Assembly: GCA_964513645.1 (NCBI GenBank) | Contig: CAZENF010000002.1 | Span: 73,409 to 137,408, forward strand | DNA length: 64,000 nucleotides | Reading direction: 5' to 3' | Source of the DNA: an uncultured Candidatus Saccharibacteria bacterium | GTDB taxonomy: Bacteria; Patescibacteriota; Minisyncoccia; 2-02-FULL-40-12; GWA2-44-9 | Shown here: piece by piece, positions 20,412 through 62,289 of the stretch | How the letters are laid out: each line of letters opens with the position of its first letter | How positions within the stretch are numbered: the stretch's first letter is position 1 | The notes under the pieces: model-generated | The model's input: only the letters and a program-made list of their open reading frames with translations | What the model was told of the DNA's origin: nothing | Database searches by the model: none | Made by a program: the position numbers and the translations under genes

Positions 20412-20419
20412 TTTTAATT

Positions 20420-27084: not shown

Positions 27085-27109
27085 AAAAACCGACTATTCA
27101 CAGTCGGTT
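27085..27109 (-). terminator. Rho-independent terminator after the secreted hydrolase gene
   Basis: Minus strand: aaccgact-gtgaat-agtcggttttt. Confidence 0.5.
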
Positions 27110-27129
27110 ATAATTGCGGAAAACTTTTA

Positions 27130-28455: not shown

Positions 28456-28456
28456 C

Positions 28457-29728: not shown

Positions 29729-29744
29729 ATCCTCAAAAACTCAA

Positions 29745-30266
29745 TTAATTACCAAGGTGCTTATTAAATCTCTCTTGGATGAGATAGATTGCGACAGAGG
29801 AAATAAAAACCAGCCAAAACATAACAATATAAAACTCTGTTTCAGTATGATGATTATAAAAATAGGTAGAAACTTGGAGGGCTAACTGCAAAGCCAAAAC
29901 AACTGTCGCCACAAAATAAGGGATGAGGACTACTGCATATTTTTGGCGATTCTCACCCATATAGACATTTGCGGTTATGGAGATGGCAAGTAAGGGCGAA
30001 ATCACTATGGCATGTAAGCCAATCGTTGCCAAATTATCAAAATAATTATATTCATTCGCCCCAACAAAAACTCTGGCCAGGTCATACAAAACTCTTTCTC
30101 CCAAAGCGAGTATCACCAAAAATAAAAGGCCGATTATAAAACCGTTTGAGGGCGTGATTTTATAATGCCAAAAGTTTTCATTTCCCTGACCACTCGAACT
30201 GCCGGTGGTTTTGCCCACAGTTCCCATAAAAATTAATACACCCACAAAAATAATAAATCCTATCAT
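29745..30266 (-). CDS. Hypothetical integral membrane protein
   Basis: 5 predicted TM helices. ORF only. Confidence 0.35.
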   Translation of the reverse strand: MIGFIIFVGVLIFMGTVGKTTGSSSGQGNENFWHYKITPSNGFIIGLLFLVILALGERVLYDLARVFVGANEYNYFDNLATIGLHAIVISPLLAISITANVYMGENRQKYAVVLIPYFVATVVLALQLALQVSTYFYNHHTETEFYIVMFWLVFISSVAIYLIQERFNKHLGN

Positions 30267-30270
30267 ATTT

Positions 30271-30957
30271 TTATTTATTTATATTTCTATAACGTTGAAT
30301 TGCCCAGACTACCCCGGTTAAAACAACCCCCATCAGAATTAAAACAAAATAAACCCCGAAAGTAGCGTTAGCGTTTAAGAGTACCAGTCCAACCTGAAAT
30401 AGTAGCCAAATTAAAAGCCAGCCTGAGGTTATGTAATACGGGAGGAGAAGAACCATCAGTCTTTCTTTTTTCTCCCTGTAAAAATAATACATTAAAAATG
30501 TAATGAACCAGAAAGGCACGACGATTAAGGCATCTACCGTCAGTCTGGTGGTGATATTATCACTAGCGTGGCCAGGAATGTCACCGTAGTAACTGGAATA
30601 TCCGGGGACAAAATAATTCACCGCATCGTCAATCGTTTTATTCATCAGGATTGCCAGGGAGATGAATAAAAGGATAGCCAAGATAAGTGAGTATGGAGAA
30701 GTTGTTTTAGGTCTCGAAACGGTCGCTTTTTTAGATTCCGCCGGCTTCATCTCACCCGGACTTACCGAAGAAGTTCCAGGAGTCAAAGGTTGAGGGATTG
30801 GTACTCCTGACATGTTCTCGAGGTTTATAAAATCAAAAGCGCCCTTAATCTGTTGTTCTTGCCAACCATTACCCAAGAGAACTTCCTTGATCGTTTCATC
30901 GGAAGCTCCCTGAGCCCGGGAATTCTTAATATAATTAACGAGATTTTTATCAGTCAT
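30271..30957 (-). CDS. Hypothetical membrane protein
   Basis: A soluble N-terminal domain followed by 4 TM helices. ORF only. Confidence 0.35.
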   Translation of the reverse strand: MTDKNLVNYIKNSRAQGASDETIKEVLLGNGWQEQQIKGAFDFINLENMSGVPIPQPLTPGTSSVSPGEMKPAESKKATVSRPKTTSPYSLILAILLFISLAILMNKTIDDAVNYFVPGYSSYYGDIPGHASDNITTRLTVDALIVVPFWFITFLMYYFYREKKERLMVLLLPYYITSGWLLIWLLFQVGLVLLNANATFGVYFVLILMGVVLTGVVWAIQRYRNINK

Positions 30958-42982: not shown

Positions 42983-43366
42983 ATGCCAGATTTCGGATTT
43001 GAAAAAGAAGAAATTGTCGGCCAGCTCGCGGTCAAGAAAGAAGATAAGGAAGAGGGCCATTTAACCGTCGACGTTTTTCAGAACGGAGATGATATTGTTG
43101 TCCGTTCAACCGTGGCCGGCGTTAATCCTGACGATATAGACATTTCGATAACCAAAGACATGGTTACGATAAGAGGTCAGCGTAAGACCGAGGAAAAAAT
43201 AAACTCCTCTGACTACTATCACCGCGAGCTCTATTGGGGCTCTTTCTCCAGATCCATAATCCTTCCTTTTGATATCGACCCGGATAACGCTAAGGCCTCG
43301 ATGAAAAACGGAGTTCTGACCATCCGTCTGCCGAAAGCTGAACTTGGTCCGCCGGGTAGCAAATAA
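42983..43366 (+). CDS. Hsp20/alpha-crystallin family small heat-shock protein
   Basis: ACD pattern …DIDISITKDMVTIRGQRK…GVLTIRLPKAE. Confidence 0.8.
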   Translation: MPDFGFEKEEIVGQLAVKKEDKEEGHLTVDVFQNGDDIVVRSTVAGVNPDDIDISITKDMVTIRGQRKTEEKINSSDYYHRELYWGSFSRSIILPFDIDPDNAKASMKNGVLTIRLPKAELGPPGSK

Positions 43367-44608: not shown

Positions 44609-44690
44609 TCAGCCCCGGCTCGTGGCGGTCATCTGCTGATGACCGCATCGCTCCGCCTTTCAAATCCTGGCACAATCAATCAATTGATTG

Positions 44691-44774
44691 TGCCCTCGAG
44701 AGGATTTGAACCTCTAATCCCTTACGGGAACAGCGTCCTAAGCGCTGCGCGTATGCCAATTCCGCCACGAGGGC
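44691..44774 (-). tRNA. tRNA-Leu (anticodon TAG), type II with long variable arm
   Basis: Minus strand: GCCCTCG-TG-GCG-GAATTGGCATA-CGC-G-CAGCG-CTTAGGA-CGCTG-TTCCCGTAAGGGAT-AGAGG-TTCAAAT-CCTCT-CGAGGGC-A. All stems pair. Anticodon loop CTTAGGA gives TAG. No CCA encoded. Confidence 0.75.
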
Positions 44775-44858
44775 ATAATTCAATATTTTACCATAAATTT
44801 TCTAAAAGTAAAAACCCCGCCGTGGCGGGGTTTTTACTTAATCAGTACTGATTAAACG

Positions 44859-45284
44859 TTAGACGTTGAAGAACTGGGTCCAGTTGACCAATGAGGCCAA
44901 GGTCTGGAGGATCAAACCGACAGCCAAGACTACCAAGGCGCCAATGATACCATTGACGATCCTCGATTTGGCTGCACCTGATTTTGATGAATCATCTCCA
45001 GCGGACATATAGCTGATACCGCCCCAAACAATGAATATAACGGCGATAACGACGCTGACAAATATCAGAAACCGTGCAATCGTCGTAATAACACCCTGGA
45101 TATCAAGCAACGTGACAGGTGCTCCGGCATAAGGTGATGTGGGAGTCGGCAATCCCTGGGCCAAGACAAATGCGGGTAATAAAGCTAAGGCTGTCGCGAT
45201 GGAAACTTTCGCTACTCTGTTTAATTTCAAACTAATACACCTCCGTTCATTTTTTTGTTTTATTTCTACTATTTTATTATACAA
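44859..45284 (-). CDS. TrbC/VirB2-like pilin-fold protein (P1)
   Basis: Signal peptide, then helix-AGDD..K.GAAKSRIVNGIIG-helix architecture. Paralog of P2 at about 75% identity. Confidence 0.6.
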   Translation of the reverse strand: MYNKIVEIKQKNERRCISLKLNRVAKVSIATALALLPAFVLAQGLPTPTSPYAGAPVTLLDIQGVITTIARFLIFVSVVIAVIFIVWGGISYMSAGDDSSKSGAAKSRIVNGIIGALVVLAVGLILQTLASLVNWTQFFNV

Positions 45285-45403
45285 AATAGACTTGGTAATG
45301 GTAGTCTAATAATCAACAACCCCCGCTGTAAGCGGGGGTTGTTTAAAGAAACCTAGATCCAGGCACCTATTACCGGGAGTAGCTAGCTAACCCCGGATAG
45401 GTA

Positions 45404-45778
45404 CTAGACGTTGAAGAAGACCGTCCAGTTGACCAATGAGGCCAAGGTCTGGAGGATCAAACCGACAGCCAAGACTACCAAGGCGCCAATGATACCATTG
45501 ACGATCCTCGATTTGGCTGCACCGGCTTTGGCGGCATCGTCACCTGCCATCATGTACATCATACCGCCCCAAACGATGAAGATAACAGCTACTACGACGC
45601 TAACCAGGATCAAAAACCTGGCAATAGTCGTAATGATACCCTGGATATCAACCAAGGTGATCGGCTGGCCGGCATACGGTGATGTCGGGGTCGGCAATTG
45701 GGCAAAAACCAATGCCATCGGCATCAACGCCATAGCGGCTGCGACTGAAACCTTCGCAACTGATTTAAATTTTGTCAT
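45404..45778 (-). CDS. TrbC/VirB2-like pilin-fold protein (P2)
   Basis: Same architecture as P1. Its C-terminal half is nearly identical to that of P1. Confidence 0.6.
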   Translation of the reverse strand: MTKFKSVAKVSVAAAMALMPMALVFAQLPTPTSPYAGQPITLVDIQGIITTIARFLILVSVVVAVIFIVWGGMMYMMAGDDAAKAGAAKSRIVNGIIGALVVLAVGLILQTLASLVNWTVFFNV

Positions 45779-45907
45779 ATGTACACCTCCCTTCGAAGCG
45801 TACCTTCTTAAAAGGCCGCTCTTTTTAATAAAATCCCTATTTCATATTATATCACCTTTACAACGAAAAATATCAACAAGCTAAAAACTTAGGAGATTTA
45901 AATCTTT

Positions 45908-46300
45908 TTATTGGCATATTGGAGGATTCGCGTTTTGATTACAAAATGCTGATGCGCAGTCATTACCACTGCAACACTGGGCACCGACAGGAAGAGTATT
46001 ATTGCCAGGGCAATTACCTCCCCCGCCAAAGAACTGGTTGGGATTTGTGGCAAATCCCTTAACGGTAGTCACTATAATACCCACGGAAAATATTATTAAA
46101 GCCCCGATTATGCCCGACTTAAGTACGCCTTTAGCGGTAGCAACCCTCTGTTGATTATTCCCGGCCGTAACATACATTATACCGGCAATAACTATGGTGA
46201 TGGTGGCCAGAATACCGCCAAGAGTGAGAAGAAAGCCCCCAATATTTTGAGCTATGGACAACAGGTCATTAAGAGAGATGGGTACTCCGGCGGGTGGCAT
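45908..46300 (-). CDS. Pilin-fold protein with C-terminal Cys-rich module (P3)
   Basis: Helix-AGNNQQRVATAKGVLKSGIIG-helix, then NCPGNNTLPVGAQCCSGNDCASAFCNQNANPPICQ. Confidence 0.55.
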   Translation of the reverse strand: MPPAGVPISLNDLLSIAQNIGGFLLTLGGILATITIVIAGIMYVTAGNNQQRVATAKGVLKSGIIGALIIFSVGIIVTTVKGFATNPNQFFGGGGNCPGNNTLPVGAQCCSGNDCASAFCNQNANPPICQ

Positions 46301-46317
46301 AATATAATTATTAAAAA

Positions 46318-46734
46318 TTATGAGTTAAAGAATGTCTGCCAGCTGGTGGCGAGAAGGACAATAGTATTGATTATGAGACCGGCAGCAAAGAGTATTAAAG
46401 CTCCGATAACTCCGTTTTTAAAAATGCCTTTTGCAGTCGTAACTCTGGCAGAATTATTTCCCGCACTGACCCAGACCAGTCCGGCAACAATTATGACGAT
46501 ACCGGCCACTATACCGGCAATTGCCATTAGAAAACCTCCGATACTTTGGGCAAGGGCAAATATTCCCTGGGCTCCCAAAGTATTCGACGCGTTATTAGCA
46601 GTGGTCTGGTAGCATAGCTGGGCATTGAAAGTAGGCCCAGGGTTACAATATATGTTCGGACTCTGCGCATAGCTATAATTGACCAGCGCCAGAGAAAGAG
46701 TAAGCAAAGATATGGCAATTACGGTCTTTTTCAT
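46318..46734 (-). CDS. Secreted pilin-fold protein with N-terminal Cys motif (P4)
   Basis: Signal peptide, CNPGPTFNAQLC, then helix-AGNNSARVTTAKGIFKNGVIG-helix. Confidence 0.55.
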   Translation of the reverse strand: MKKTVIAISLLTLSLALVNYSYAQSPNIYCNPGPTFNAQLCYQTTANNASNTLGAQGIFALAQSIGGFLMAIAGIVAGIVIIVAGLVWVSAGNNSARVTTAKGIFKNGVIGALILFAAGLIINTIVLLATSWQTFFNS

Positions 46735-46868
46735 ACGAAATCTGATTACTTGTCAGCTGAGACAACTACGTTATCCCGGCAAATCAGGTAATTTTAAATT
46801 AATACGATGGTATATCCATTATACAATCCGTAACGACAATGACAACCTCCGATTAATCCACAAATAAA

Positions 46869-48614
46869 TCAGGGCTGGGTTGCAACGGAACCCGTCTTAT
46901 CCAAGAAATATCCCAGATCATCAATGGATATCACGTAGTAATAGTAATTCGTATTAGGGCTAACCTTTGTTGAGGTTAGGGAGTGAGATAAAACCAAGTT
47001 AGTATCACTGACAGTCGCCCCCAAATAACAGAAGTAAAGAAATTTGCATATTACAAGCATACTTGTTGCCGGATAATCAGTATTCCAAGTGGCTGTTATT
47101 GATGTAGAGGTTGAATTCAAAACAGGATTAGAAATTACGGTTCCCGGCAAGGTTGTAAAGAGATTAGAAACAAAACTATAACCATAATTATTTTGGTCAT
47201 CTTTTGATATTACCAATACGGAATAATTCGTTTTCAAATTCAATTTTGATACGGTCAGAGAATGGGCAACAACTAAGTTGCCGTCTAATTGCCAGCTTCC
47301 AAAGCAGGCCGTAATGCTTAAACAGGCAACAGCCAAACTGGTAGAAGGTTTATCGGTATTCCAGCTAATAGTGGCGGAATTCCTTCCGATATTTGACACT
47401 TGGACGTTGGAGATGACCGGCGGGACAGGTACAGGTTTGGGAGTTGGAGTTGGCCTTAAGGTCGGTAAGGGAGTAGGCGTAACCGTCGGCCTTAAGGTCG
47501 GTACGGGGGTCGGAGTTGGGGTAGCCGAAGAGAGGGTTTTAAAAAGATAATATCCAAGGATAGCTAATTGGCTATCCGGACTTTTTGACCTGACCCAGAC
47601 ATAATAATAGGTATTTAATTTTAAACCAGAGAGATCGACCGAGTGGCTGGTTACCTGGTTTGTATCAACAGAGGTAAAGATATTGCACTTTCCTGCAGTA
47701 AGACAATACTCCAACTGGCTGTCAGACTGCTTATCCGTTGTCCAGGTTACAGTAGCTCCTGAACTTGTGATATTTATTATCTTGACGTTAGAAATCGTAG
47801 GGGCAGGAGCAGGTGTAGGCGGCGGACCGACATTTACTGTGACTGATGCTGTAACAGTACCCGCCGGTGAATTACAACTGACAGAATACGCTCTGGTCGC
47901 AGGCAAAGCCGGAGTGACTTGAGAACCGGACGTGCCGGTCCAACCGCCGGGGGAAACAGTGCAGGAGGTCGTATTCACCGAGGTCCAGCTTATCATTGCA
48001 GTTCCATTATAAGGAATCGAGCACGGATTTATACCGTTGCATTTAATTGAAACACTCGCCGGAGCGGCTGTCGGAGTCGGCGGCTTAACCTTGTTAAGCA
48101 CGACTAAGGTCCTCACATCTCCGTTTGTCAGCAATGTTATAAGTCCGTCCGAATTGCCGTTGTTCACGTCATATGCATAGAAATCGGCCAGAGATTGAAC
48201 CTGGACGCTAAATTGGTCGTTGTAATAAGTGTCCCATCGGTTAGTGTTAGTGCCTGAAAGCGTTTCTCTACCGTAATAATAAGTTCCTAACGGAAGATTG
48301 CTCTGGGAAACACATTGGGAATCATTACCGGAACTACTCCGAAGAATTGTGGCATTCAAAAGTAACGGAGTAGCAAAAGTTCTTTGGGTGAAAGAGCCGA
48401 CAGGATCAGGAAAAGACGGGTCGCTCTTACCGCTTGGCGGGATAACAAAGGTCGTGCCCATATTTCCGCCACTAAAAACATTGCCATTAGTGTCGACCAG
48501 AATCGTACATATAAATATTGTCCCGGTTTGGGACTGGGCTAAAGAAACCGAAGTATATACCGGCAGAGTAGCCAAGATGACAAATATCAGAGATTTTATT
48601 TTAAAATTAAGCAT
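46869..48614 (-). CDS. Large secreted repeat protein with Fn3/Ig-like domains and PT-rich linkers (P5)
   Basis: Signal peptide, PTPTPTPVPT linkers and repeated beta-rich modules. No TM anchor. Confidence 0.45.
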   Translation of the reverse strand: MLNFKIKSLIFVILATLPVYTSVSLAQSQTGTIFICTILVDTNGNVFSGGNMGTTFVIPPSGKSDPSFPDPVGSFTQRTFATPLLLNATILRSSSGNDSQCVSQSNLPLGTYYYGRETLSGTNTNRWDTYYNDQFSVQVQSLADFYAYDVNNGNSDGLITLLTNGDVRTLVVLNKVKPPTPTAAPASVSIKCNGINPCSIPYNGTAMISWTSVNTTSCTVSPGGWTGTSGSQVTPALPATRAYSVSCNSPAGTVTASVTVNVGPPPTPAPAPTISNVKIINITSSGATVTWTTDKQSDSQLEYCLTAGKCNIFTSVDTNQVTSHSVDLSGLKLNTYYYVWVRSKSPDSQLAILGYYLFKTLSSATPTPTPVPTLRPTVTPTPLPTLRPTPTPKPVPVPPVISNVQVSNIGRNSATISWNTDKPSTSLAVACLSITACFGSWQLDGNLVVAHSLTVSKLNLKTNYSVLVISKDDQNNYGYSFVSNLFTTLPGTVISNPVLNSTSTSITATWNTDYPATSMLVICKFLYFCYLGATVSDTNLVLSHSLTSTKVSPNTNYYYYVISIDDLGYFLDKTGSVATQP

Positions 48615-48615
48615 G

Positions 48616-49017
48616 CTACTGGCAAGTTATTATATTCGCTATCGTATAAGTGGGCACGTTCTGAAAACCAACAGCGGACATTATGCTCGTTACCGATAAA
48701 ATTATCGTGAAAACACCCAATATTACAACTCCGCCCATTATCCCGGCCCAAAGAGCTTTTTTTGCATCGGATAGGCTTGTAGCATTTCCACGGCTCAAAA
48801 GAAAGCTTATTCCGTAAACTATCATCATTACTCCGATCGCAATTATTCCAAACCGCAAAAACCAACAAGAAAGTCCGCTGATGAGACTGATAAGATTGTT
48901 CAGATCAAAAGGTCTGCCGGTCGCACTACCAAGGACGGTTGTAAATCCTTGTGCCATAGAAATATACGGTATGGCCGAACTTGAAATAAATATTGTTGCC
49001 CAAAAAAAATTTTTCAT
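48616..49017 (-). CDS. Pilin-fold protein (P6)
   Basis: Helix-SRGNATSLSDAKKALWAGIMG-helix architecture. Confidence 0.5.
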   Translation of the reverse strand: MKNFFWATIFISSSAIPYISMAQGFTTVLGSATGRPFDLNNLISLISGLSCWFLRFGIIAIGVMMIVYGISFLLSRGNATSLSDAKKALWAGIMGGVVILGVFTIILSVTSIMSAVGFQNVPTYTIANIITCQ

Positions 49018-49031
49018 TGTATATCACAAAT

Positions 49032-51209
49032 TTAACCGCCTAAAGATAGGATATTCTCAAGCAATGTCTTGAAACCTTGGCCGATGATAATAATAACCAA
49101 ACCGATTATCGCCCAAAGAAGTATTTTCTTTGCAGTCCTAACTTTTTCCGGTTCACCGCGGCCAAAAAGAAGCATCAATCCTGCAATAACTATCATCATT
49201 ACGATTATCGGTCCGACAATATAGTAAAGAAACGCCGCAATCGCCCCGAAAAGATCATCTAAAGTAGAGATGCCTCCCGAGAAAGGATTTTGAATCTCGA
49301 AAGTGTAAGGTGCCCCGGCACTTTGAGGAGTGGGAACGGGCGTGGGTATCGGCGTCGGGACCGGCGTCGGACAAATTAAAGTACCGCAGGCCTGACAAGT
49401 CCTTCCCTGATAAAAACATCCGGCGGAAGGATTACAGGGTACACAGGTTGGGACAGGCGTGGGCGGAGGTGTCGGAACCGGAGTAGGTGTAGGACTCGGT
49501 GTCGGAGTAGGAGTGGGCGTAGGAATAACCACAACTATTGGAGCAGAACAATTAACCGAAGTGCCAGCAACGTTTGTAGCAGTTAGAACACAGCTCTGAC
49601 TCAAATTTGGAGTAACGGTACTCGTACCGGTAGAAGTGGTGTTACCGGAACCTATGTTTCCATTACAAACATATTGCAATGTACCGTCGGCATCATTCAA
49701 TGATGACCAGGTCATTATTGTCGACTGGCCGAGAATAATACTCGTAGGGGTAAACGAAACCGTGCATGAAGGCTGTGGCGCAGCACCAACATTTACTGTA
49801 ACAGATTGCCTGGCTACTCCCCCAGGCCCGTTGCAGGTAAGATTAAAAGTGCCTGAAGTTGTCACACTATTTACAACTTGGGCATCGTTCAAGTTTGTCC
49901 AAACAGTAGAATTATATGTATTCGTTACTGAAGCCGTTGTTGAATTTATACAGGTCCAACTTATAGAGGGTGAAGAACCATAGGCAGCCGAACAGGCCCC
50001 GACCGAACCGTTGCAAACAATGTTGGCCACCGGCGGAACCGGATTGACAGTAACCGAAGCTGAACAAGTCGAAGGATTGCCTGAAATATTTACCACTGTG
50101 AAAGTACATGTTTGGCTTGCCGTGGGGATAACCGAGGTCGTACTGTTGGCGACCGTACTGCCTGAACCGATATTACCGGTACACGCATATTGAAGAGTCC
50201 CGTCCGCGTCGTTATTGGAAGACCAAGTTAAAGCCGAAGATTGTCCTGAAATGATAGACGCCGGAGAGAAAGAAGCTGCACATGAAGCCGGCGGAGCGGC
50301 GGAAACATTTACCTGAACACCACCCGAAGCATTTCCTCCGCCTCCGATACAGTTAACGGAATAAACTTGAGTCGAGGTCAGACCTCCAGTATTAAAACTT
50401 CCCGATACCCCGCTTGCACCACCAGGAGAAACACTGCAGGAAGTGGCGTCGGTCGTATTCCAGGCGATTGTAGCCGAACCTCCATAAGGTATCGTACATT
50501 GGCTTAAAGAACCATTACAGGTAACGCTCACGGTCGGCGGAGGTACGGGATAAATGGCCTGATTTCCGGCTGCATCGTAAACAATTATCCTAAATGTATA
50601 TTGGCCGGGAACAGGGGGATAAAAATAAACCGATGAACTCCAAAAATCACGGTTAGGCAAAGAGGCCTGGTAAAAAGCCAGACTCCAAACACAGCCGGTC
50701 ATGTCTGTTTTCATACAGTTAACTGCATTGTAAGGCGCGTAGTCCGCCGAGAATCCAGCCAAATGAGAGCCTCCGGAATCACCCAGACTCCAGGTAACCT
50801 GTTTTTGTCCAGGAGTTATATCGGTTACATCGAATTGAGATACTATAGGTGAGGTGGTATCGGTCGGCGTTCCGTTTAAGACGTTGACCACAACATTATA
50901 ACTATTCGTAACTCCTCCACTCGAACAATTTGCAAATAAAACGGTACTCGAAGTTACGCTTGTCAGAGCACTCGCTCCGGACATCCCAGCAAAGATCTGG
51001 TTATTCAATTGGTCAGTAACGTTACCTGACGTTGCGTTAGTACAACTCCAGACGATATTTGCCGAACTGCCGCTTTGAATATTGCAAATATCGGTTGAGC
51101 CGTTACAGGTTATAGCCGCATGGGGCGTGGCTTGTGCGGAAACATATTCCCCCATAAAAAGGAGCAGGAACCCCAGAGTAAGAAATAGGATATTAGCCTT
51201 CTTATTCAT
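49032..51209 (-). CDS. Large surface protein with a C-terminal pilin-fold anchor (P7)
   Basis: Signal peptide, Cys/Thr/Ser-rich repeated beta-rich domains and a PTPTPTP linker. The C-terminus has …GRGEPEKVRTAKKILLWAIIG… between two helices. Confidence 0.5.
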   Translation of the reverse strand: MNKKANILFLTLGFLLLFMGEYVSAQATPHAAITCNGSTDICNIQSGSSANIVWSCTNATSGNVTDQLNNQIFAGMSGASALTSVTSSTVLFANCSSGGVTNSYNVVVNVLNGTPTDTTSPIVSQFDVTDITPGQKQVTWSLGDSGGSHLAGFSADYAPYNAVNCMKTDMTGCVWSLAFYQASLPNRDFWSSSVYFYPPVPGQYTFRIIVYDAAGNQAIYPVPPPTVSVTCNGSLSQCTIPYGGSATIAWNTTDATSCSVSPGGASGVSGSFNTGGLTSTQVYSVNCIGGGGNASGGVQVNVSAAPPASCAASFSPASIISGQSSALTWSSNNDADGTLQYACTGNIGSGSTVANSTTSVIPTASQTCTFTVVNISGNPSTCSASVTVNPVPPVANIVCNGSVGACSAAYGSSPSISWTCINSTTASVTNTYNSTVWTNLNDAQVVNSVTTSGTFNLTCNGPGGVARQSVTVNVGAAPQPSCTVSFTPTSIILGQSTIMTWSSLNDADGTLQYVCNGNIGSGNTTSTGTSTVTPNLSQSCVLTATNVAGTSVNCSAPIVVVIPTPTPTPTPSPTPTPVPTPPPTPVPTCVPCNPSAGCFYQGRTCQACGTLICPTPVPTPIPTPVPTPQSAGAPYTFEIQNPFSGGISTLDDLFGAIAAFLYYIVGPIIVMMIVIAGLMLLFGRGEPEKVRTAKKILLWAIIGLVIIIIGQGFKTLLENILSLGG

Positions 51210-51268
51210 TTGCGTTAATTATACTACGAAACTCGACATGATTAATCCTTGAAGTACTGACGGCTCGT

Positions 51269-52045
51269 TTATCCTGTCGGCGGAGGCGGCGGCGGAGATA
51301 ACGGCGGAGGCATTGCCGGAGTATTGGAGTTGGGCGGAAGGAAACTTTCTTCTTTTCTCTTTTTCCACCATCTCCATCCAAACCAGGCAACTACTAAAAC
51401 CCCAACGCCTCCCACAGCATAGATAAGTATTGTGTTGAGGTCGAAACCGCCTAAAATCCCTGTTGGTTCAGGCGCGGCCGGTATTGGGGTTGCTTTTATT
51501 TTTTTACAGTCATTCGAGCATGTCTTGGTTGTCTCCCCCGCTCCGGCATCGCAAGTTCCGTCGTCATTACAGATCGAAGCGCCGTTAATGAAGATGGAAA
51601 CCGATTGGTTCCCTTTATTATCTGCAAATTGCACAACCAAGGCATCAGGAACATATGGGCCTCTGACCATTATTTTGCCGGCAGTAAAACTGCTGCTACC
51701 GCCGGTCGGATCAAATTTAAAAGTCTGAACCGTTTCATGTTTAATATTCACGATCTGACCTGTAAAAGCGGCTGTATCGGACGGGGTTTGCGGTGTAAAG
51801 GACTCCGACAGAACGTCAAACTTAACCTCATAATCCCTGTCGGGTAAAAGCTGACCATGGTCATAGTAAAGATAGAAGACATAACTTAACTTCGACGGGT
51901 CGGCATCCGGACCAGGTTTATTCAATGCGAAGGCAAAAGAAAACGACGCAAAGAGTGCCGCAATTCCCGTAACTATATAAATTAATTTTTTCATCAAAGA
52001 AAACAGATATTGCTGTGCCGCTATTACCTTGGGTAATAGTAACAT
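51269..52045 (-). CDS. Secreted protein with C-terminal TM helix and Pro-rich tail (P8)
   Basis: Signal peptide, and a C-terminal TM followed by WWKKRKEE…PPPLSPPPPPP. Confidence 0.4.
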   Translation of the reverse strand: MLLLPKVIAAQQYLFSLMKKLIYIVTGIAALFASFSFAFALNKPGPDADPSKLSYVFYLYYDHGQLLPDRDYEVKFDVLSESFTPQTPSDTAAFTGQIVNIKHETVQTFKFDPTGGSSSFTAGKIMVRGPYVPDALVVQFADNKGNQSVSIFINGASICNDDGTCDAGAGETTKTCSNDCKKIKATPIPAAPEPTGILGGFDLNTILIYAVGGVGVLVVAWFGWRWWKKRKEESFLPPNSNTPAMPPPLSPPPPPPTG

Positions 52046-52092
52046 GACATTATCTCCATTATTTTTAAATTATACCATTTTTATTTTGCTAA

Positions 52093-52824
52093 CTACTCAC
52101 ACACAGGCGGATTTACGTTCTGATTACAGAAAGCCGATTGACAATCGTTCCCAGAACAACAAGTTGACCCGTTAGGAAGACTGTTATCGCCCGGACAGTT
52201 TCCCGGAGGATTCTGGCATATAAAAGTTGGGTCGCAATATCCTGACTGACAATCGGAATTATTGGCACAGTCCCGACCGTTCGGATATGGGGGTCCGCCG
52301 CCCCCACCCGGAGGATTAGTAGGCGTACAATCAAACTTGAACCAATTTGTACTCGTCCACTGCTGGCCGTTCGGTAAAGTTACAGTTGTCGCCGCCAAAC
52401 TCTGGATAATAGTATTGGTTATAAGCCAGGCCATCATCACGATAAGCAGGCCTATCATTGTATCTTTGAAAATTCTCTTACCCTGAGCAAGCATTCCCGG
52501 ATTTGAACCGCCAAGCATCATCATCACGCCCGCAATAACAAAAAAGAGTGTCGCCAATATCGGCGAAAGACCTATCATAATAAAATCGATTATGTCACGG
52601 CCAAGTTTATAAAGATCGCAGCTATTGGTACACTCCGGCGGTTGCCAGCAGTCTTCTTTAGTATTACAGGCCCCGCCATAGTTACACACATTATTTATGC
52701 AACTATTGGTCCAGCCGCACGAGACTATCGGTTCGCCCGGAACCCAGGCATAAGCAAAACTTACGGCCGTCATTAACATGGCCGGAAAGATCAAGGCCAG
52801 CATAAAAGTTCTATAATTTTTCAT
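52093..52824 (-). CDS. Cys-rich pilin-fold protein with C-terminal module shared with P3 (P9)
   Basis: N-terminal Cys cluster, helix-GGSNPGMLAQGKRIFKDTMIG-helix, then NCPGDNSLPNGSTCCSGNDCQSAFCNQNVNPPVCE, which is about 75% identical to the P3 C-terminus. Confidence 0.55.
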   Translation of the reverse strand: MKNYRTFMLALIFPAMLMTAVSFAYAWVPGEPIVSCGWTNSCINNVCNYGGACNTKEDCWQPPECTNSCDLYKLGRDIIDFIMIGLSPILATLFFVIAGVMMMLGGSNPGMLAQGKRIFKDTMIGLLIVMMAWLITNTIIQSLAATTVTLPNGQQWTSTNWFKFDCTPTNPPGGGGGPPYPNGRDCANNSDCQSGYCDPTFICQNPPGNCPGDNSLPNGSTCCSGNDCQSAFCNQNVNPPVCE

Positions 52825-54164
52825 TATGGTCCGGGGTAAGCGCTCTTCGTCATAAGAGTATTAACCTTTGATTCGGCCGACCTTATGGCGGACTTGAGGG
52901 CCTGACGTTTGAGGTTCACGTCATCAATCATATCAGCAAATATCTGGTCGATGGCATTATTGTCTACTTGGTACCAGGATTTGGCCGACAGCGCCTGAAC
53001 CGCAAAAACTCCAAGTTTAGGATCATTCCTCTGGACATCGATGATGTCCCTTCTGGCCGACGGACGTGAAGCCGCAGTAACATACGCTAGCGAACCGTCA
53101 TGAGACCCTAAATAGTTAAGGAATCTCCATGCCGCATTCTGATTTTTTGACTGGGCGGACACTCCAACCGCCCAATAGCTGGCAAAGTTTTTGGTATTAA
53201 GTTCCGAAAATTGAGGCACCGGAGCAATACCAAAATTAAGTCGGTTGAACCTGCCTTGAACGACAGGGATTTGATGAGAATAATTAAACATCATGGCCAG
53301 GCTGCCTTCGACAAAAGCGTCGATTGAATAATGCTGGTCATCATTCCAGGTGTAAACTTTTTTAGCTGGATTCGCAAAATCCGTATAATACTGGAGTGCG
53401 TTTTCACCGACCAGAGTAGAGTTGACGGAGCGGGTGAAAGTCGCAGCAGTATTAGTCTCGTTGGTCATCTTGGTTCCGTTCTGTATCATCAGCTCACTAA
53501 GTATATCTGAAGAACGGTTTACGTTTCTGGCCGTTCCCATCGCCGCTCCGGCCTGAATAATATTATCTTTAGTATCGAATTTTGTAAGAAGTTCGACATC
53601 GTTATTAAAATCCTCCCAGGTCTTGGGCGGCGCAGTTATGCCGGCGGTATTGAACATATCTTTGTTGTAAAAAAGAGCCAAAGTATCGACATACAAGGGT
53701 ATGGCATATATCTTGTCCTGATAAACAAGGTCTTTTGAAACGACGTCAACGAATTGTTTTTGAAAATCAGAGAGGGTGAAGAATTGGACGGTCTTTGAAC
53801 CGGAAGTTGCCGGCATCGGCGAAAGTATGTCGCGATGTTTTGCCAGCCAGGTGTTGTCTATCATTATCAGGTCCGGTCCGGTGCCCGATGCCAGAGCATC
53901 GATCAGAGATTTTTCATAATCAGCGTATGAAAATTGTCTATAATTAACTTTTATACCTGGTTCGGCACCTTTAAACGCGTTGATAAGGGCCGTGAGGGTC
54001 TGGCGGTCATCATAAACACCCCAGAATTCCAAACTGGCCTGGGCATTGCCCGTTCCACCACCGACATTTCTCAAAAACAGCAGTATCGTTACAAAAACAA
54101 TAAAAATTATACCTCCGATAAGTAGGTAGAAAAATTTGCTTGAACTAAAAAAACTTGTATTCAT
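52824..54164 (-). CDS. ABC transporter extracellular solute-binding protein (family 1), orphan
   Basis: N-terminal anchor and an SBP_bac_1-like pattern (…KVNYRQFSYADYEKSLIDALASGTGPDLIMIDNTWL…). No adjacent permease or ATPase. Confidence 0.7.
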   Translation of the reverse strand: MNTSFFSSSKFFYLLIGGIIFIVFVTILLFLRNVGGGTGNAQASLEFWGVYDDRQTLTALINAFKGAEPGIKVNYRQFSYADYEKSLIDALASGTGPDLIMIDNTWLAKHRDILSPMPATSGSKTVQFFTLSDFQKQFVDVVSKDLVYQDKIYAIPLYVDTLALFYNKDMFNTAGITAPPKTWEDFNNDVELLTKFDTKDNIIQAGAAMGTARNVNRSSDILSELMIQNGTKMTNETNTAATFTRSVNSTLVGENALQYYTDFANPAKKVYTWNDDQHYSIDAFVEGSLAMMFNYSHQIPVVQGRFNRLNFGIAPVPQFSELNTKNFASYWAVGVSAQSKNQNAAWRFLNYLGSHDGSLAYVTAASRPSARRDIIDVQRNDPKLGVFAVQALSAKSWYQVDNNAIDQIFADMIDDVNLKRQALKSAIRSAESKVNTLMTKSAYPGP

Positions 54165-54165: not shown

Positions 54166-54756
54166 TTAAGGTTTTTTGAAAATTAGCCCGAAATGAAATT
54201 CTCCTGCATCTATCGGGCCTTCGGACTTAAGTCCGCTCTCTCCGGCAGCTTTAGTTATATTTTCTTCACTTAAGCGTATATCATCCGGCGGACCGAATCC
54301 CCCGGTGGATTTTTTCCAATCAATTATTATCATGTTTCCTCCTCCTTTAAGAACCCTGACGCCTTCTTTTATTATATCGGCGTATTTTCTGGATTGGAAA
54401 AGAATATTTGCCAACAAAACTATATCTTGAGAGCTGTCAGCCAAGCTTGAACCGCCTAATATTTCAAGATTTGTTCTGATAGTTTGTATATTATTTATAC
54501 CTTCGGCTCCGGCTCTGGCCCGAACATTATCAAGAGCCATCTCCTGAACATCCAGAGCATAAACGATGCCTTCGGGACCGGTTTTTTCAGCAAGAATGAT
54601 GGTAAAATATCCGGCGCCCGAACCAAAATCAGATATCACCATTCCCTCCTTTATTCCAAAACGTTCGGCAATAATTTCAGGGTGAAGAAAGCCCCCCGTT
54701 CCAAAGGGTTTTTGTCGAGAGATTGGTGTTGCTGATAGAGCTTCCATCTCTATCAT
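54166..54756 (-). CDS. Class I SAM-dependent methyltransferase
   Basis: Motif I VISDFGSGAGYFTI, with acidic motif II and motif III (DIVLLANILF). Confidence 0.7.
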   Translation of the reverse strand: MIEMEALSATPISRQKPFGTGGFLHPEIIAERFGIKEGMVISDFGSGAGYFTIILAEKTGPEGIVYALDVQEMALDNVRARAGAEGINNIQTIRTNLEILGGSSLADSSQDIVLLANILFQSRKYADIIKEGVRVLKGGGNMIIIDWKKSTGGFGPPDDIRLSEENITKAAGESGLKSEGPIDAGEFHFGLIFKKP

Positions 54757-61268: not shown

Positions 61269-62138
61269 TTGTTCCCTGACAAAAACCCGCCGGATGAGAG
61301 TGGAGTTAAGCCAATGGAGAAGCGTCCGAGAGCTGACGATTTTATCAGAAAAATAAAAAATCCTGACCTATTTGTTCCAGACCCGGATAAAGATTTTGGC
61401 ATGTTCCAACAGATGGATATTGCTTTCGAAGGCATCCACGATAAGCTTGATGAATTGCGGCGCAATCACGGCCGCCTGGGTTACAGTGCCCAGAATTTGA
61501 TGAGCGACCTTAGTAAATCCTACATCGAAGCGGCTCAATTTGATGATGAAGAAGCCATGGCCTGGGCAGAAAAGGGCATGACAGAACTTACTGAAGGGTT
61601 CAGTGAAGCAAGTCTGAATGACCAGCTCGCTGAAACCGGAAACAGGTTCAGCCGGACAATTTGGCAAGAACAGCTTGAGGCAGGTTTATTCGGAAAAGTC
61701 TGGCCCGTCATCACAGGAAAGAACGATCAAATACCGTCACTTATTTCCTGGAAAGATTTTCGTGGAAATATCCAGGCTTATTTATATGCCTATCTCGATG
61801 TGGTGAGTGAGCCTGCTAAAGCTTTGACTAACGAACTTTCCAAACCAGAAATGACGTCGAGTGTCGAGTTCATGATACTCGAAAGATACCTTGCCATTGC
61901 CGACTCCATCACCTTGCGGCTTTCTTTAGAACGCCATATTCCCGGCTATGTTATCAATAACGCTTACGGTCCTTGGGCTGCTTACACAAACAAGCTTCGG
62001 ACAGCATACGGAACAATTGCCCATGTCCGCCGGGAGTATAATTTGCGCCGTAGTATTCAGCGAATGAACCGCCAACTGTTATTGGATATTGAGGAAATGT
62101 TCCTGAAAACACTCTTAAAACTCAAAGAACCGGTTTAG
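61269..62138 (+). CDS. Hypothetical protein
   Basis: ORF followed by a strong terminator at 62164-62188. No motif recognised. Confidence 0.35.
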   Translation: MFPDKNPPDESGVKPMEKRPRADDFIRKIKNPDLFVPDPDKDFGMFQQMDIAFEGIHDKLDELRRNHGRLGYSAQNLMSDLSKSYIEAAQFDDEEAMAWAEKGMTELTEGFSEASLNDQLAETGNRFSRTIWQEQLEAGLFGKVWPVITGKNDQIPSLISWKDFRGNIQAYLYAYLDVVSEPAKALTNELSKPEMTSSVEFMILERYLAIADSITLRLSLERHIPGYVINNAYGPWAAYTNKLRTAYGTIAHVRREYNLRRSIQRMNRQLLLDIEEMFLKTLLKLKEPV

Positions 62139-62163
62139 CTACCTTGTTCTGCTCCAATATATC

Positions 62164-62188
62164 AAGGCCCCCTCGAAAGGGGCCTTTT
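62164..62188 (+). terminator. Rho-independent terminator
   Basis: aaggcccc-ctcgaaa-ggggcctttt. Confidence 0.6.
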
Positions 62189-62190
62189 AC

Positions 62191-62219
62191 TTGACAAAAT
62201 ATCCAGATTTTGATAGAAT
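62191..62219 (+). promoter_or_regulatory. Near-consensus sigma70-type promoter (TTGACA-N17-TAGAAT) for the GC-rich gene
   Basis: TTGACA at 62191-62196, a 17 nt spacer, TAGAAT at 62214-62219. AGGAG lies 9 nt upstream of the ATG at 62290. Confidence 0.5.
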
Positions 62220-62289
62220 ATTGTGCAGAGTAGGTTTAGTACCTTCAAATCACATCGTTTCGTCAACTCGTTCATCAGGAGAAATTGTC

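What the first reader, a model, noticed from the sequence alone, without database searches (positions are those of the whole stretch)
44859..52824. 9 kb cluster of nine secreted TrbC/VirB2-like pilin-fold proteins with shuffled Cys-rich and PT-linker modules
All nine genes are on the minus strand. Seven contain the two-helix pilin-fold core with a conserved inter-helix motif (A/S)G(D/N)..(K/R)…AK..(I/L)..G(I/V)(I/M)G. Two are giants (581 and 725 aa) with Fn3/Ig-like repeats, PTPTPTP linkers and, in P7, a C-terminal pilin-fold anchor. P3 and P9 share a near-identical 34-aa C-terminal knot NCPG(N/D)N(T/S)LP.G..CCSGNDC.SAFCNQN.NPP(I/V)C, while the rest of each protein differs. P4 and P9 carry further Cys motifs. 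P1 and P2 are tandem paralogs. The adjacent orphan solute-binding protein is co-directional. Such modular, rapidly diversifying surface arrays are typical of episymbiotic CPR cell-surface or host-attachment systems and are largely uncharacterised. No VirB4, VirB6 or VirD4 is in the window, so a conjugative T4SS role is not supported here.
Basis: partly seen in the sequence, partly recalled or inferred. Interest (0 to 1): 0.65.

Follow-up and report, generated by a model that had tools for sequence, protein, structure and literature searches.

The report
Patescibacterial VirB2-like pilin array with binding protein
This is a real chromosomal cluster of seven VirB2-type (type IV secretion) pilin genes plus two accessory surface proteins in an ultrasmall Patescibacteria genome; such arrays are already described, but this one is tightly and conservedly coupled to a sugar-type binding protein, and some of its pilins carry adhesin-like or cysteine-rich extensions.

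Summary
Nine co-directional genes lie at 44859-52824. Seven carry a homologous two-helix pilin core: six pass the Pfam PF18895 gathering score, and P6 is recovered by leave-one-out HMMs. P5 and P8 are not pilins.

The kind is known. VirB2-like pilin arrays of 2-11 genes were catalogued in 383 Patescibacteria assemblies (PMC12102498), and one such array is essential in Southlakia epibionticum (PMC10633639).

I did not find the following in the three T4SS papers I term-searched:
- The array sits at a fixed locus, gyrA-CBS-methyltransferase-SBP-[pilins]-VanW-Hsp20-PrsW-ValRS, conserved across Paceibacteria.
- The MalE-like SBP is not incidental. It directly precedes a Cys-stapled "P9-type" pilin in 12/12 genome loci and 30/36 metagenome loci, often with overlapping stop and start codons.
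- P9-type pilins carry variable C-terminal cargo: Cys modules here; fn3, Ig-like, peptidoglycan-binding or SLT domains elsewhere.
- P7 is a string of Ig-like domains anchored by a C-terminal pilin hairpin.
- P1 and P2 are the most conserved and have their own promoter-like sites, strong Shine-Dalgarno sequences and terminator-like hairpins. They are the likely major subunits.

No virB4 lies in the window, but three syntenic relatives' genomes have one elsewhere. The P3/P9 module is 74% identical and old, not a recent shuffle.

Verdict: a new variant of a known kind, of moderate interest.

The parts
54166..54756 (-). Class I SAM-dependent methyltransferase (196 aa), conserved gene directly upstream of the SBP. 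Its function is unknown.
   Evidence: Pfam Methyltransf_31/11/25, E=1.7e-14. Nearest solved structures are uncharacterised SAM methyltransferases. Present directly upstream of the SBP in all 13 genome loci and in L028-L031. There is a 1-nt gap to the SBP start (coordinates).
52824..54164 (-). MalE-like family-1 solute-binding protein (446 aa) with an N-terminal TM anchor. It is the conserved gene directly upstream of the pilin array.
   Evidence: PF01547 E=4.4e-34 and PF13416 E=3.8e-31. PDB sequence hits are to maltose/trehalose/acarbose-binding proteins. Its stop codon overlaps the P9 start by 1 nt. Pilin genes follow it in 12/12 genome loci. It precedes the P9-type pilin in 30/36 metagenome loci.
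52093..52824 (-). P9 (243 aa), a 'P9-type' pilin. It consists of a signal peptide, a Cys-rich N-terminal segment, the pilin hairpin (about residues 68-144) and two C-terminal Cys modules (residues 186-203 and 209-243).
   Evidence: PF18895 39.7 bits. In the AF2 model, helices 68-104 and 109-144 have pLDDT 80-88 and the tail is below 50. Cys36, Cys59 and Cys69 are invariant and Cys166 is near-invariant (at least 90% of sequences) in 14 orthologues. It is always the first pilin after the SBP.
51269..52045 (-). P8 (258 aa; probable true start is Met18, at about 51994). Signal peptide, beta-rich ectodomain, CNDDGTC...C..DC motif, single TM helix, WWKKRKEE stop-transfer and a Pro-rich cytoplasmic tail. 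It is not a pilin.
   Evidence: No Pfam, NCBIfam or PDB hit. One C-terminal TM segment. Orthologues (51-58% identity) sit at the same position in L002, L003 and L011; phmmer relatives of P8 sit there in L032 and L035-L042, and unannotated 233-238-aa genes occupy that position in L028-L031.
49032..51209 (-). P7 (725 aa). Signal peptide, five to six Ig-like beta-sandwich domains (residues 27-562), a PT-rich linker with a 6-Cys mini-module (563-648) and a C-terminal pilin hairpin (649-725).
   Evidence: PF18895 at residues 649-708, 39.6 bits. AF2 model: beta domains with pLDDT 80-93, a disordered 565-648 region and helices 650-682 and 687-724. Foldseek against the PDB: GhpA grappling-hook Ig strings at E=3.4e-16, then DSCAM, contactin and titin. 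Orthologous fusions occur in L002, L003, L011 and P0015.
48616..49017 (-). P6 (133 aa), a divergent small pilin.
   Evidence: No PF18895 hit. NF045849 pilin-like match at E=1.2e-4. Leave-one-out HMM E=2e-6. blastp to P1 2e-11. Orthologues in L003 and L011.
46869..48614 (-). P5 (581 aa). A secreted protein with a signal peptide, one Ig-like domain shared with P7, fn3 domains and a PT linker. It has no pilin hairpin or TM anchor.
   Evidence: fn3 E=3.6e-14 with two stretches. Shares repeats with P7. Its only hydrophobic segment is the signal peptide. Orthologues in L003 and L011.
46818..46845 (-). Best sigma-70-like promoter match of the region (TTGTCA-16-TATAAT, 11/12), in the 134-nt gap before P4.
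   Evidence: This is a consensus match only.
46318..46734 (-). P4 (138 aa), a small pilin with a 2-Cys N-terminal segment.
   Evidence: PF18895 32.3 bits. 51% identical to the P3 core.
45908..46300 (-). P3 (130 aa). Pilin hairpin without a signal peptide, followed by a Gly linker and a C-terminal 6-Cys module (residues 96-130).
   Evidence: PF18895 39.8 bits. The module is 26/35 identical to the P9 tail. Relatives P0036-P0038 have signal peptides and a 4-Cys version of the module. The L003 and L011 orthologues lack the module.
45404..45778 (-). P2 (124 aa), candidate major pilin. It has its own extended -10-like site and a strong Shine-Dalgarno sequence (GGGAGGTG).
   Evidence: PF18895 34.5 bits. 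Upstream sequence read. 73-76% identical to the L011 orthologues, close to housekeeping genes.
45315..45343 (-). GC-rich stem-loop (AACAACCCCCGC-TTAC-AGCGGGGGTTGTT) just after P2. It looks like a terminator but has no T-run.
   Evidence: Read directly. The T-run-dependent scan did not call it.
44859..45230 (-). P1 (123 aa from the revised TTG start at 45230; the mechanical ORF runs to 45284). Tandem paralogue of P2 and second candidate major pilin, with its own promoter-like site and a GGAGGTG Shine-Dalgarno sequence.
   Evidence: PF18895 36.0 bits and TrbC 24.9 bits. 78% identical to P2. Start context read. The L011 orthologues are 123 aa.
44803..44835 (-). Canonical intrinsic terminator (CCCCGCC-ACG-GCGGGG followed by TTTTTACTTTT) closing the array. 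tRNA-Leu follows at 44690-44774.
   Evidence: Sequence read. tRNA.

Best explanation
The locus is the Paceibacteria version of the Patescibacterial VirB2-like pilin array. It is a chromosomal set of Sec-exported two-helix hairpin pilins that insert in the cytoplasmic membrane with both ends outside.

The proposed next step is inferred, not shown. A monoderm-type (MPF-FATA-like) T4SS encoded elsewhere in the genome would take up these pilins and build a short pilus or surface fibre at the contact site with the host cell.

Proposed division of labour:
- P1 and P2 are the major subunits. They are the most conserved and each has its own promoter-like site, strong Shine-Dalgarno sequence and terminator-like hairpin.
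- P3, P4 and P6 are minor or variant subunits.
- P9 is a disulfide-stapled pilin that presents a variable C-terminal module on the outside. Here that module is two Cys-rich knots.
- P7 is a minor or tip pilin whose N-terminus carries a flexible stalk of Ig-like domains acting as an adhesin.
- P5 (secreted Ig/fn3 protein) and P8 (single-pass membrane protein) are accessory surface components.
- The membrane-anchored MalE-like SBP is co-expressed with, and probably works beside, the P9-type pilin, for example by binding a host-envelope saccharide.

The system most likely serves host attachment or exchange in an episymbiotic lifestyle, not conjugation.
For: Shown:
- Pilin-family membership of seven genes.
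- The hairpin fold is predicted with pLDDT 80-88. The two best PDB fold matches are the Agrobacterium T-pilus VirB2 (8exh) and the Aeropyrum conjugation pilus (8dfu), with target-normalised TM 0.62-0.64. The only PDB sequence-profile hit is VirB2.
- The gene order, from gyrA through the array to Hsp20 and ValRS, is conserved across GyrA identities of 58-84%.
- S. epibionticum has six PF18895 pilins, SEML1_0014-0019, next to VirB4, PrgI and VirB6-like genes. All are essential and are followed by a convergent Hsp20, as here.
- VirB4 is listed as present in the genomes that hold the syntenic loci L004, L008 and L011.
- P1/P2 orthologue identity is 73-77%, against 42-57% for the other array genes. 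The expression signals around P1 and P2 were read.
- The P7 ectodomain is a string of Ig-like domains, with Foldseek E=3e-16 to adhesion-type proteins.
- P9-type pilins in other genomes carry SLT, PG_binding_1, fn3 and He_PIG domains after helix 2. This fits an outward-facing, envelope-targeting cargo.

From established knowledge of VirB2/TraA pilins: both termini face outside and the inter-helix loop carries the basic residue. This matches the invariant Lys in the loop.
Against: - No VirB4, VirB6, VirB3 or TrsD homologue is in the 64-kb window, and I could not search the rest of this genome.
- The fold matches are not statistically significant (E about 2), because a helical hairpin is a simple fold.
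- No pilus has been seen in any Paceibacteria.
- A 640-residue N-terminal load (P7) cannot sit on every subunit of a VirB2-type helix.
- Relatives exist in which 3-17 hairpins are fused in one polypeptide. This hints that some family members are membrane-embedded bundles rather than filament subunits.
- The roles of the SBP and the methyltransferase are inferred from linkage only. That linkage is confounded by the strong general synteny of the region.
Confidence: 0.55

Rival explanations
1. The hairpin is only a membrane anchor. The seven proteins are ordinary surface or membrane proteins that inherited a VirB2-like hairpin as a two-pass anchor. They are never polymerised and do not depend on a T4SS. 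The array is a set of envelope proteins and adhesins displayed on the cell membrane.
For: - No T4SS machinery gene is in the window or within 10 kb of the array in 13 syntenic genomes.
- The large fusions P7, L014 (509 aa) and P0166 (900 aa) look like anchored surface proteins.
- Poly-hairpin relatives would be multi-pass membrane proteins.
Against: - The small members P1, P2, P4 and P6 consist of nothing but a signal peptide and a hairpin, so as mere anchors they would anchor nothing.
- The homologous small pilins of S. epibionticum sit inside the T4SS cluster and are essential.
- The strict conservation of Gly, Lys and Gly in the loop region suggests a specific packing or lipid contact, not a generic TM anchor.
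Confidence: 0.22
2. The locus is an SBP-coupled capture or uptake device. The MalE-like SBP is the functional head of the operon. Pilin-tethered modules (Cys knots; wall-lytic or wall-binding domains in relatives) open or bind the host envelope. The SBP captures released saccharides or muropeptides and hands them to a transporter encoded elsewhere, or to a conduit formed by the hairpins.
For: - The SBP directly precedes the P9-type pilin in 12/12 and 30/36 loci, with gaps of -4 to 9 nt in 21 of the 30.
- The SBP is as conserved as housekeeping genes (71% to L011).
- SLT and PG_binding_1 cargo occurs on P9-type pilins.
- Patescibacteria depend on host-derived building blocks, and a role of the T4SS in uptake has been speculated (PMC11665869).
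Against: - No ABC permease or ATPase is in the window.
- Almost all SBP-linked loci share the same gyrA synteny, so linkage could reflect frozen gene order in compact genomes.
- Saccharimonadia arrays work without an adjacent SBP.
- No ligand is known.
Confidence: 0.15
3. The array is a remnant or cargo of an integrative conjugative element or other mobile element.
For: - The pilin family comes from conjugation systems.
- A few P9-type pilin fusions elsewhere lie next to a serine recombinase (L033) or a PIF1 helicase (L070).
Against: - The chromosomal position between gyrA and valS is fixed in dozens of genomes.
- There is no relaxase, coupling protein, integrase or repeat boundary.
- GC content is 0.44-0.47 against about 0.43 for the window.
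- Flanking genes are housekeeping.
Confidence: 0.03

Closest known systems
Essential pilin array SEML1_0014-0019 of Southlakia epibionticum ML1 (Saccharimonadia; Wang et al. 2023, PMC10633639)
   Same: - It is a tandem array of divergent PF18895/TrbC-like small pilins in a Patescibacteria chromosome.
- It is followed by a convergent Hsp20 gene, as in the window.
- It has no relaxase and is presumed non-conjugative.
   Different: - In S. epibionticum the array is divergently adjacent to VirB4, PrgI and VirB6-like genes near dnaA. Here it lies behind gyrA-CBS-MT-SBP with no T4SS gene in 64 kb.
- The S. epibionticum pilins are all small (103-185 aa). Here two non-pilin genes are interleaved, one pilin is fused to about 620 residues of Ig-like domains and linker, and two pilins carry Cys-rich tails.
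Patescibacteria 'VirB2 arrays' (Quinonero-Coronel et al. 2025, PMC12102498)
   Same: The window array meets their operational definition: 2-11 pilin genes in tandem or separated by one non-pilin gene, detected with PF04956 and PF18895, with low mutual identity.
   Different: - They report arrays as most abundant in Microgenomatia and Saccharimonadia. This one is in Paceibacteria.
- They report a maximum within-array identity of 54%. P1/P2 are 78% identical.
- The main text does not mention solute-binding proteins or fibronectin domains, and its only use of 'fusion' concerns VirB3-VirB4. It states that no adhesins were detected.
VirB2/TrbC/TraA conjugative pilins (Agrobacterium T-pilus 8exh, Aeropyrum pernix conjugation pilus 8dfu)
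   Same: - Signal peptide plus a two-helix hairpin with a short basic loop.
- These are the best, though non-significant, fold and sequence matches.
- PF04956 scores are just below its cut-off.
   Different: - Sequence similarity is marginal.
- There is no adjacent machinery.
- P9-type members have four conserved Cys positions (three invariant, one near-invariant) flanking the hairpin. I propose these staple the two ends, as a functional analogue of T-pilin cyclisation. This is inference and was not tested.
- Extra domains are fused at either end.
VirB2 paralogue arrays of Bartonella and Anaplasma (as cited in PMC12102498)
   Same: Tandem amplification and divergence of VirB2 genes, interpreted as variation of a host-exposed surface.
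   Different: Those arrays are in diderm intracellular pathogens with complete adjacent VirB operons. No fusion to Ig or Cys modules, and no SBP, is mentioned in the passage cited.
GhpA grappling-hook protein of Aureispira, and eukaryotic Ig-string adhesion molecules (DSCAM, contactin, titin)
   Same: The P7 ectodomain is predicted as a string of Ig-like beta-sandwiches, with Foldseek E from 3e-16 to 1e-12.
   Different: This is fold-level resemblance only (8-21% identity among the 50 listed matches). The anchoring differs: here it is a pilin hairpin.
MalE-type (family 1) ABC-transporter substrate-binding proteins
   Same: The SBP matches PF01547 and PF13416 far above their cut-offs. Its nearest solved relatives bind maltose, trehalose or acarbose.
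   Different: No permease or ATPase gene lies nearby in the window or in any related locus. Instead the SBP is followed by pilins.

Membership tests
PF18895 T4SS_pilin / TrbC-VirB2 pilin superfamily | Match to the family HMM above the curated gathering score | tested here: met
   P1, P2, P3, P4, P7 and P9 score 32.3-39.8 bits against a cut-off of 26.6. P6 fails Pfam but is recovered by a leave-one-out HMM at E=2e-6. P5 and P8 are not members.
PF18895 T4SS_pilin / TrbC-VirB2 pilin superfamily | Signal peptide followed by two hydrophobic helices joined by a short loop with a conserved basic residue | tested here: met
   Hydropathy segments. AF2 hairpins in P9 and P7. Invariant Gly, Lys and Gly in the alignments. 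P3 lacks the signal peptide.
PF18895 T4SS_pilin / TrbC-VirB2 pilin superfamily | Three-dimensional similarity to solved conjugative pilins | tested here: inconclusive
   The top two Foldseek PDB hits are VirB2 (8exh) and the A. pernix conjugation pilus (8dfu), with target-normalised TM 0.62-0.64 but E about 2.
PF18895 T4SS_pilin / TrbC-VirB2 pilin superfamily | Genetic association with T4SS machinery (VirB4, VirB3/PrgI, VirB6) | tested here: not met
   None is in the 64-kb window, and no VirB4 relative was recognised among the ORFs within 10 kb in the syntenic loci. The rest of this genome could not be searched. The genomes holding L004, L008 and L011 are VirB4-positive according to PMC12102498 Table S1.
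PF18895 T4SS_pilin / TrbC-VirB2 pilin superfamily | Polymerisation into a pilus together with phospholipid | not testable with these tools
   This needs cryo-EM or cryo-ET, or biochemical fractionation.
Patescibacteria VirB2 array (PMC12102498) | 2-11 pilin genes in tandem or separated by a single non-pilin gene, in a Patescibacteria genome | tested here: met
   Seven pilin-domain genes with P8 and P5 as single separators. Taxon assigned from the nearest genomes.
ABC-transporter substrate-binding protein, family 1 | SBP_bac_1 or SBP_bac_8 fold | tested here: met
   PF01547 119 bits and PF13416 109 bits. PDB relatives.
ABC-transporter substrate-binding protein, family 1 | Encoded next to its cognate permease and ATPase | tested here: not met
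   No BPD_transp or ABC_tran hit in the window. In all related loci the neighbours are the methyltransferase and the pilins.
Integrative conjugative element or conjugative T4SS | Relaxase, coupling protein, integrase and variable insertion site | tested here: not met
   None was detected in the window. The syntenic position is fixed in more than 40 loci.
Type IV pilus (T4P) pilins | N-terminal class III signal and N-methylation motif (PF07963) | tested here: not met
   No N_methyl hit in P1-P9. A separate genuine T4P cluster with N_methyl pilins, T2SSE and T2SSF lies at about 10.8-20.4 kb.

The most novel reading that the evidence does not exclude
The SAM-methyltransferase, the MalE-like SBP, the disulfide-stapled cargo-bearing P9-type pilin and the downstream pilins form one conserved functional module of Paceibacteria. 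It would be a T4SS-derived organelle used for acquisition rather than secretion. Pilin-displayed modules (Cys knots, Ig strings; SLT or peptidoglycan-binding domains in relatives) engage or open the host envelope. The tethered SBP captures the released saccharide or muropeptide. The lipid-associated VirB2-like fibre may serve as the conduit. This would be an SBP-coupled pilus, a combination not described for any T4SS.
Probability: 0.12. Interest if true: 0.85.

Novelty: new variant of a known kind. Interest (0 to 1): 0.5.

Why it matters
The role of the T4SS and its pilin arrays in Patescibacteria is an open question. They are essential in the one species tested, yet there is no relaxase and no known substrate (PMC10633639, PMC11665869, PMC12857230). 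This locus adds concrete, testable leads for the largest class, Paceibacteria:
- A fixed SBP-first operon architecture.
- A recognisable subfamily of Cys-stapled pilins that display variable extracellular cargo, including wall-binding and wall-lytic domains in relatives.
- Pilin-anchored Ig-string proteins, which are candidates for the adhesins that the T4SS survey reported as missing.
- A clear pair of candidate major subunits (P1 and P2) for structural work.

If the SBP link is functional, it would point to capture or uptake rather than export.

Tried and rejected
- **Exact-sequence look-ups failed.** Look-ups of P7, IleRS, a 289-aa ORF and GyrA for the source contig found nothing. Only a 3.5-kb Logan contig (SRR12313480) carrying P9 was returned. 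Cluster look-up shows an unnamed 283-kb NCBI contig. I therefore could not walk outside the window or search this genome for virB4.
- **Recent gene conversion between the P3 and P9 tails: rejected.** Third codon positions are saturated.
- **The Cys modules could not be identified.** The AF2 tail has pLDDT below 50. There is no Pfam hit at E up to 1 and no PDB sequence hit at E up to 10. My recalled resemblance to hevein or Dickkopf-like motifs has no support, and I drop it.
- **LAS/M15 peptidase guess: not confirmed.** I suspected that the L004 and L014 P9-type tails were LAS/M15 peptidases, but Pfam does not confirm it.
- **Methyltransferase as phospholipid N-methyltransferase: unsupported.** The nearest solved proteins are uncharacterised SAM methyltransferases.
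- **Rejected identities.** T4P pilin, ICE remnant and sortase-anchored adhesin were all considered and rejected (see the membership rows).
- **Negative control.** 13 non-CPR loci with distant SBP homologues (233 kb in total) contain no pilin-core hit.
- **No structured RNA near the array.** Rfam finds none apart from tRNA-Leu. Tandem repeats occur only in the PT linker of P7.

Full report
**What is in the sequence**

Between 44859 and 52824 there are nine minus-strand ORFs. Transcription therefore runs from P9 to P1.

- Pfam places PF18895 (T4SS_pilin) above its gathering score in P1, P2, P3, P4, the last 77 residues of P7, and P9. PF04956 (TrbC/VirB2) is just below threshold in the same places.
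- P6 has only a weak NCBIfam match to a Mycoplasma ICE pilin-like family.
- All-against-all BLASTP links all seven cores.
- In a leave-one-out test, an HMM built from the other cores recovers each omitted protein (E from 2e-6 to 1e-22 at Z=1e6). It hits nothing else among the 320 ORFs of at least 60 aa in the window, including the genuine type IV pilus pilins and other membrane proteins.
- The hairpins are therefore one family, not unrelated TM anchors.
- P5 (fn3, E=3.6e-14) shares Ig-like repeats with P7 but has no hairpin. P8 is a single-pass membrane protein with no detectable family.
- Eight of the nine proteins have classic Sec signal peptides ending A-x-A. P3 starts directly with the hairpin.

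**Details that needed correction**

- The shared P3/P9 C-terminal module is 26/35 identical at the protein level. Only 13/35 third codon positions agree, and 18 of the 26 conserved residues use different codons. It is an old module held by purifying selection, not a recent shuffle.
- P3 relatives elsewhere carry a 4-Cys version of this module. The positional orthologues in L003 and L011 lack it.
- P1's mechanical ORF is too long. A GGAGGTG Shine-Dalgarno sequence sits 7 nt before a TTG at 45230, which gives 123 aa, the length of its orthologues.

**Organism and locus**

- The window is a housekeeping chromosomal region. It holds IleRS, ArgRS, ValRS, GyrA, tmRNA and SmpB, and a type IV pilus cluster.
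- A scan of species-representative genomes with the SBP found 13 Patescibacteria loci, 36-71% identical, labelled Yanofskybacteria, Portnoybacteria, Parcubacteria and Paceibacteria.
- They share the order S1 - MBL - GyrA - (CBS) - methyltransferase - SBP - pilin genes - (variable) - VanW - Hsp20 - PrsW - ValRS.
- L011 (Yanofskybacteria RIFCSPLOWO2_02_FULL_41_13) and L003 match the window gene for gene. They have one extra pilin fusion gene between P8 and P7.
- Identities of window genes to their L011 orthologues:

| Gene | Identity to L011 (%) |
|---|---|
| GyrA | 82 |
| SBP | 71 |
| P1/P2 | 73-76 |
| P3 | 57 |
| P8 | 51 |
| P4 | 47 |
| P9 | 45 |
| P6 | 45 |
| P5 | 42 |

- More distant Paceibacteria have only three to five small pilins after the SBP.
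- So the gene order is stable. What changes is the number of members and the extracellular parts.

**The SBP is part of the unit**

- In 12 of 12 genome loci with downstream sequence, the SBP is immediately followed on the same strand by pilin genes.
- 13 control loci with distant non-CPR SBP homologues (233 kb) have none.
- I then ascertained from the other side, scanning metagenomes with an alignment of the first pilin (P9-type). 30 of 36 distinct informative loci have the SBP directly upstream. Gaps run from -4 to 139 nt, and 21 of the 30 are at most 9 nt.
- Look-ups of two P9 relatives show the same context, with precomputed Pfam labels.
- In the window the chain methyltransferase, SBP, P9 has a 1-nt gap and a 1-nt overlap.
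- The SBP is a MalE-like family-1 protein with an N-terminal TM anchor. No ABC permease or ATPase is in the window.
- Caveat: nearly all of these loci share the gyrA synteny. Linkage alone therefore cannot separate function from frozen gene order.
- The six exceptions include pilin fusions next to a serine recombinase (L033) or a PIF1 helicase (L070).

**P9-type pilins**

- The first pilin after the SBP forms a recognisable subfamily. Its motif is W-x-PGEPIVPCG, then C-x2-C, then the hairpin, then W-x-x-F-x-C.
- Cys36, Cys59 and Cys69 are invariant and Cys166 is near-invariant (at least 90% of sequences) in 14 sequences.
- I infer that these four Cys staple the N- and C-terminal extracellular segments. 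This was not tested.
- After the last Cys the family carries variable cargo:
  - nothing in L002 and L003;
  - a Cys-rich tail in L011;
  - two Cys modules in the window;
  - fn3 in P0004, P0070 and L033;
  - He_PIG Ig domains in P0131 and P0187;
  - PG_binding_1 plus fn3 in P0114;
  - SLT lytic transglycosylase in P0166 and L070.
- This is the real basis for calling the system modular.

**Structures**

- The AF2 model of P9 has mean pLDDT 65. It gives a confident helical hairpin (68-104 and 109-144, pLDDT 80-88) and unmodelled Cys tails.
- Its two best PDB fold matches are the Agrobacterium T-pilus VirB2 and the Aeropyrum conjugation pilus, but at E about 2.
- The only PDB sequence-profile hit is VirB2, at E=9.
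- The P7 model has mean pLDDT 70. It shows five to six beta-sandwich domains, a disordered PT/Cys linker (565-648) and a C-terminal hairpin.
- The P7 ectodomain matches strings of Ig-like domains: GhpA grappling hook at E=3e-16, then DSCAM, contactin and titin.

**Expression signals (consensus reading only)**

- The best promoter-like site of the region precedes P4.
- P2 has an extended -10-like site and a GGGAGGTG Shine-Dalgarno sequence.
- A GC-rich hairpin follows P2.
- P1 has its own promoter-like site and Shine-Dalgarno sequence.
- A canonical terminator follows P1, just before tRNA-Leu.
- Together with their conservation, this makes P1 and P2 the candidate major subunits.

**What is already known**

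- Quinonero-Coronel et al. 2025 (PMC12102498) searched 3,035 Patescibacteria genomes with PF04956 and PF18895. They found VirB2-like pilins in 1,948 VirB4-positive assemblies, near virB4 in 1,135 of them. They also found 441 arrays of 2-11 pilin genes.
- Wang et al. 2023 (PMC10633639) showed that the six-pilin array of S. epibionticum, inside its T4SS cluster, is essential. That array is also followed by a convergent Hsp20, as in the window.
- A 2025 review calls these the only monoderm T4SSs with potential pili (PMC12857230).
- Table S1 of PMC12102498 lists VirB4 as present in the genomes that hold L004, L008 and L011. No VirB4 relative was recognised within 10 kb of their arrays.
- The survey paper (PMC12102498) does not mention solute-binding proteins or fibronectin domains, and its only 'fusion' concerns VirB3-VirB4. 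The Cell paper was checked for the SBP terms only. The review was searched only for its Patescibacteria passages.
- The survey states that no adhesins were detected.

**Interpretation**

- The best-supported reading is a Paceibacteria variant of the Patescibacterial VirB2-like pilin array, served in trans by a T4SS encoded elsewhere.
  - P1 and P2 are the major subunits.
  - The other small pilins are variants.
  - P9 and P7 are pilins that display extracellular modules.
  - P5 and P8 are accessory surface proteins.
  - The SBP is a co-expressed extracytoplasmic partner.
- Shown: family membership, architecture, synteny, linkage and the domain content of relatives.
- Inferred: filament assembly, T4SS dependence, the division of labour and any role of the SBP or the methyltransferase.
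- The main rival is that the hairpin serves only as a membrane anchor. It gains some weight from the lack of nearby machinery and from relatives with 3-17 hairpins fused in one chain.
- The family is very large. There are 69,800 representatives at E up to 1e-3 among 1.84 billion cluster representatives.

**Verdict**

The feature is real and correctly recognised as a pilin family. The kind is known. The particular architecture appears undescribed in the three T4SS papers I term-searched: an SBP-first operon away from virB4, Cys-stapled cargo-bearing pilins, and an Ig-string fused to a pilin. It is a new variant of a known kind, of moderate interest.

Noticed in passing
P0041, P0042, P0043, P0045, P0048: 'Poly-pilins': single polypeptides with 3-17 tandem PF18895-like hairpins (for example 820 aa with 8, and 1775 aa with 17). 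The three I read (P0041, P0042, P0048) are joined by short linkers with no internal signal peptides, so they do not look like read-through artefacts. They could be covalently linked pilus strands or multi-pass membrane bundles.
   Followed up: partly
P0166, P0114, P0131, P0187, P0070; L070:5857-6804; L033:5911-7341: P9-type pilins in other genomes carry C-terminal SLT/SLT_3 lytic transglycosylase, PG_binding_1, He_PIG or fn3 domains. A VirB1-like wall-lytic activity fused to a VirB2-like pilin is unusual.
   Followed up: partly
window 42983-43366 (+), compared with S. epibionticum SEML1_0020: An Hsp20 gene lies convergent to the end of the pilin array both here (after VanW) and in S. epibionticum. 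This gene neighbourhood is shared between two Patescibacteria classes even though the T4SS machinery genes are adjacent only in Saccharimonadia.
   Followed up: partly
window 716-4237 (-): The 1173-aa class I aminoacyl-tRNA synthetase (IleRS-like) has a complete histidine-phosphatase domain (His_Phos_1, E=5e-34) inserted at residues 521-683, between halves of the catalytic domain.
   Followed up: no
window 10774-23539 (-): Type IV pilus cluster: two 150-aa N_methyl pilins, a 587-aa pilin-like protein with Ig-like or CarboxypepD_reg domains, a 563-aa fn3 protein, PilC-like T2SSF, and a PilB-like ATPase with an N-terminal response-regulator receiver domain. A stand-alone receiver and a 7TM histidine kinase lie next to it.
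   Followed up: no
window 6012-7476 (-): A proteasome-subunit homologue (PF00227, E=2e-28) and an adjacent, overlapping 257-aa ORF of unknown family, in a CPR-type genome.
   Followed up: no
window 23524-30957 (-): Co-directional block of a ThiF-like protein, a nitroreductase-like protein and five ORFs (173-495 aa) without any Pfam hit. It might be a peptide-modification or small-molecule cluster.
   Followed up: no
L033:2399-3862 and L070:7915-9324: The few P9-type pilin fusions that are not behind an SBP lie near a large serine recombinase (L033) or a PIF1-like helicase (L070). This suggests that some copies travel on mobile elements.
   Followed up: partly
window 62001-64000: GC content rises to 0.56 against about 0.43 for the rest of the window. 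Rfam finds no rRNA or other RNA family there.
   Followed up: no
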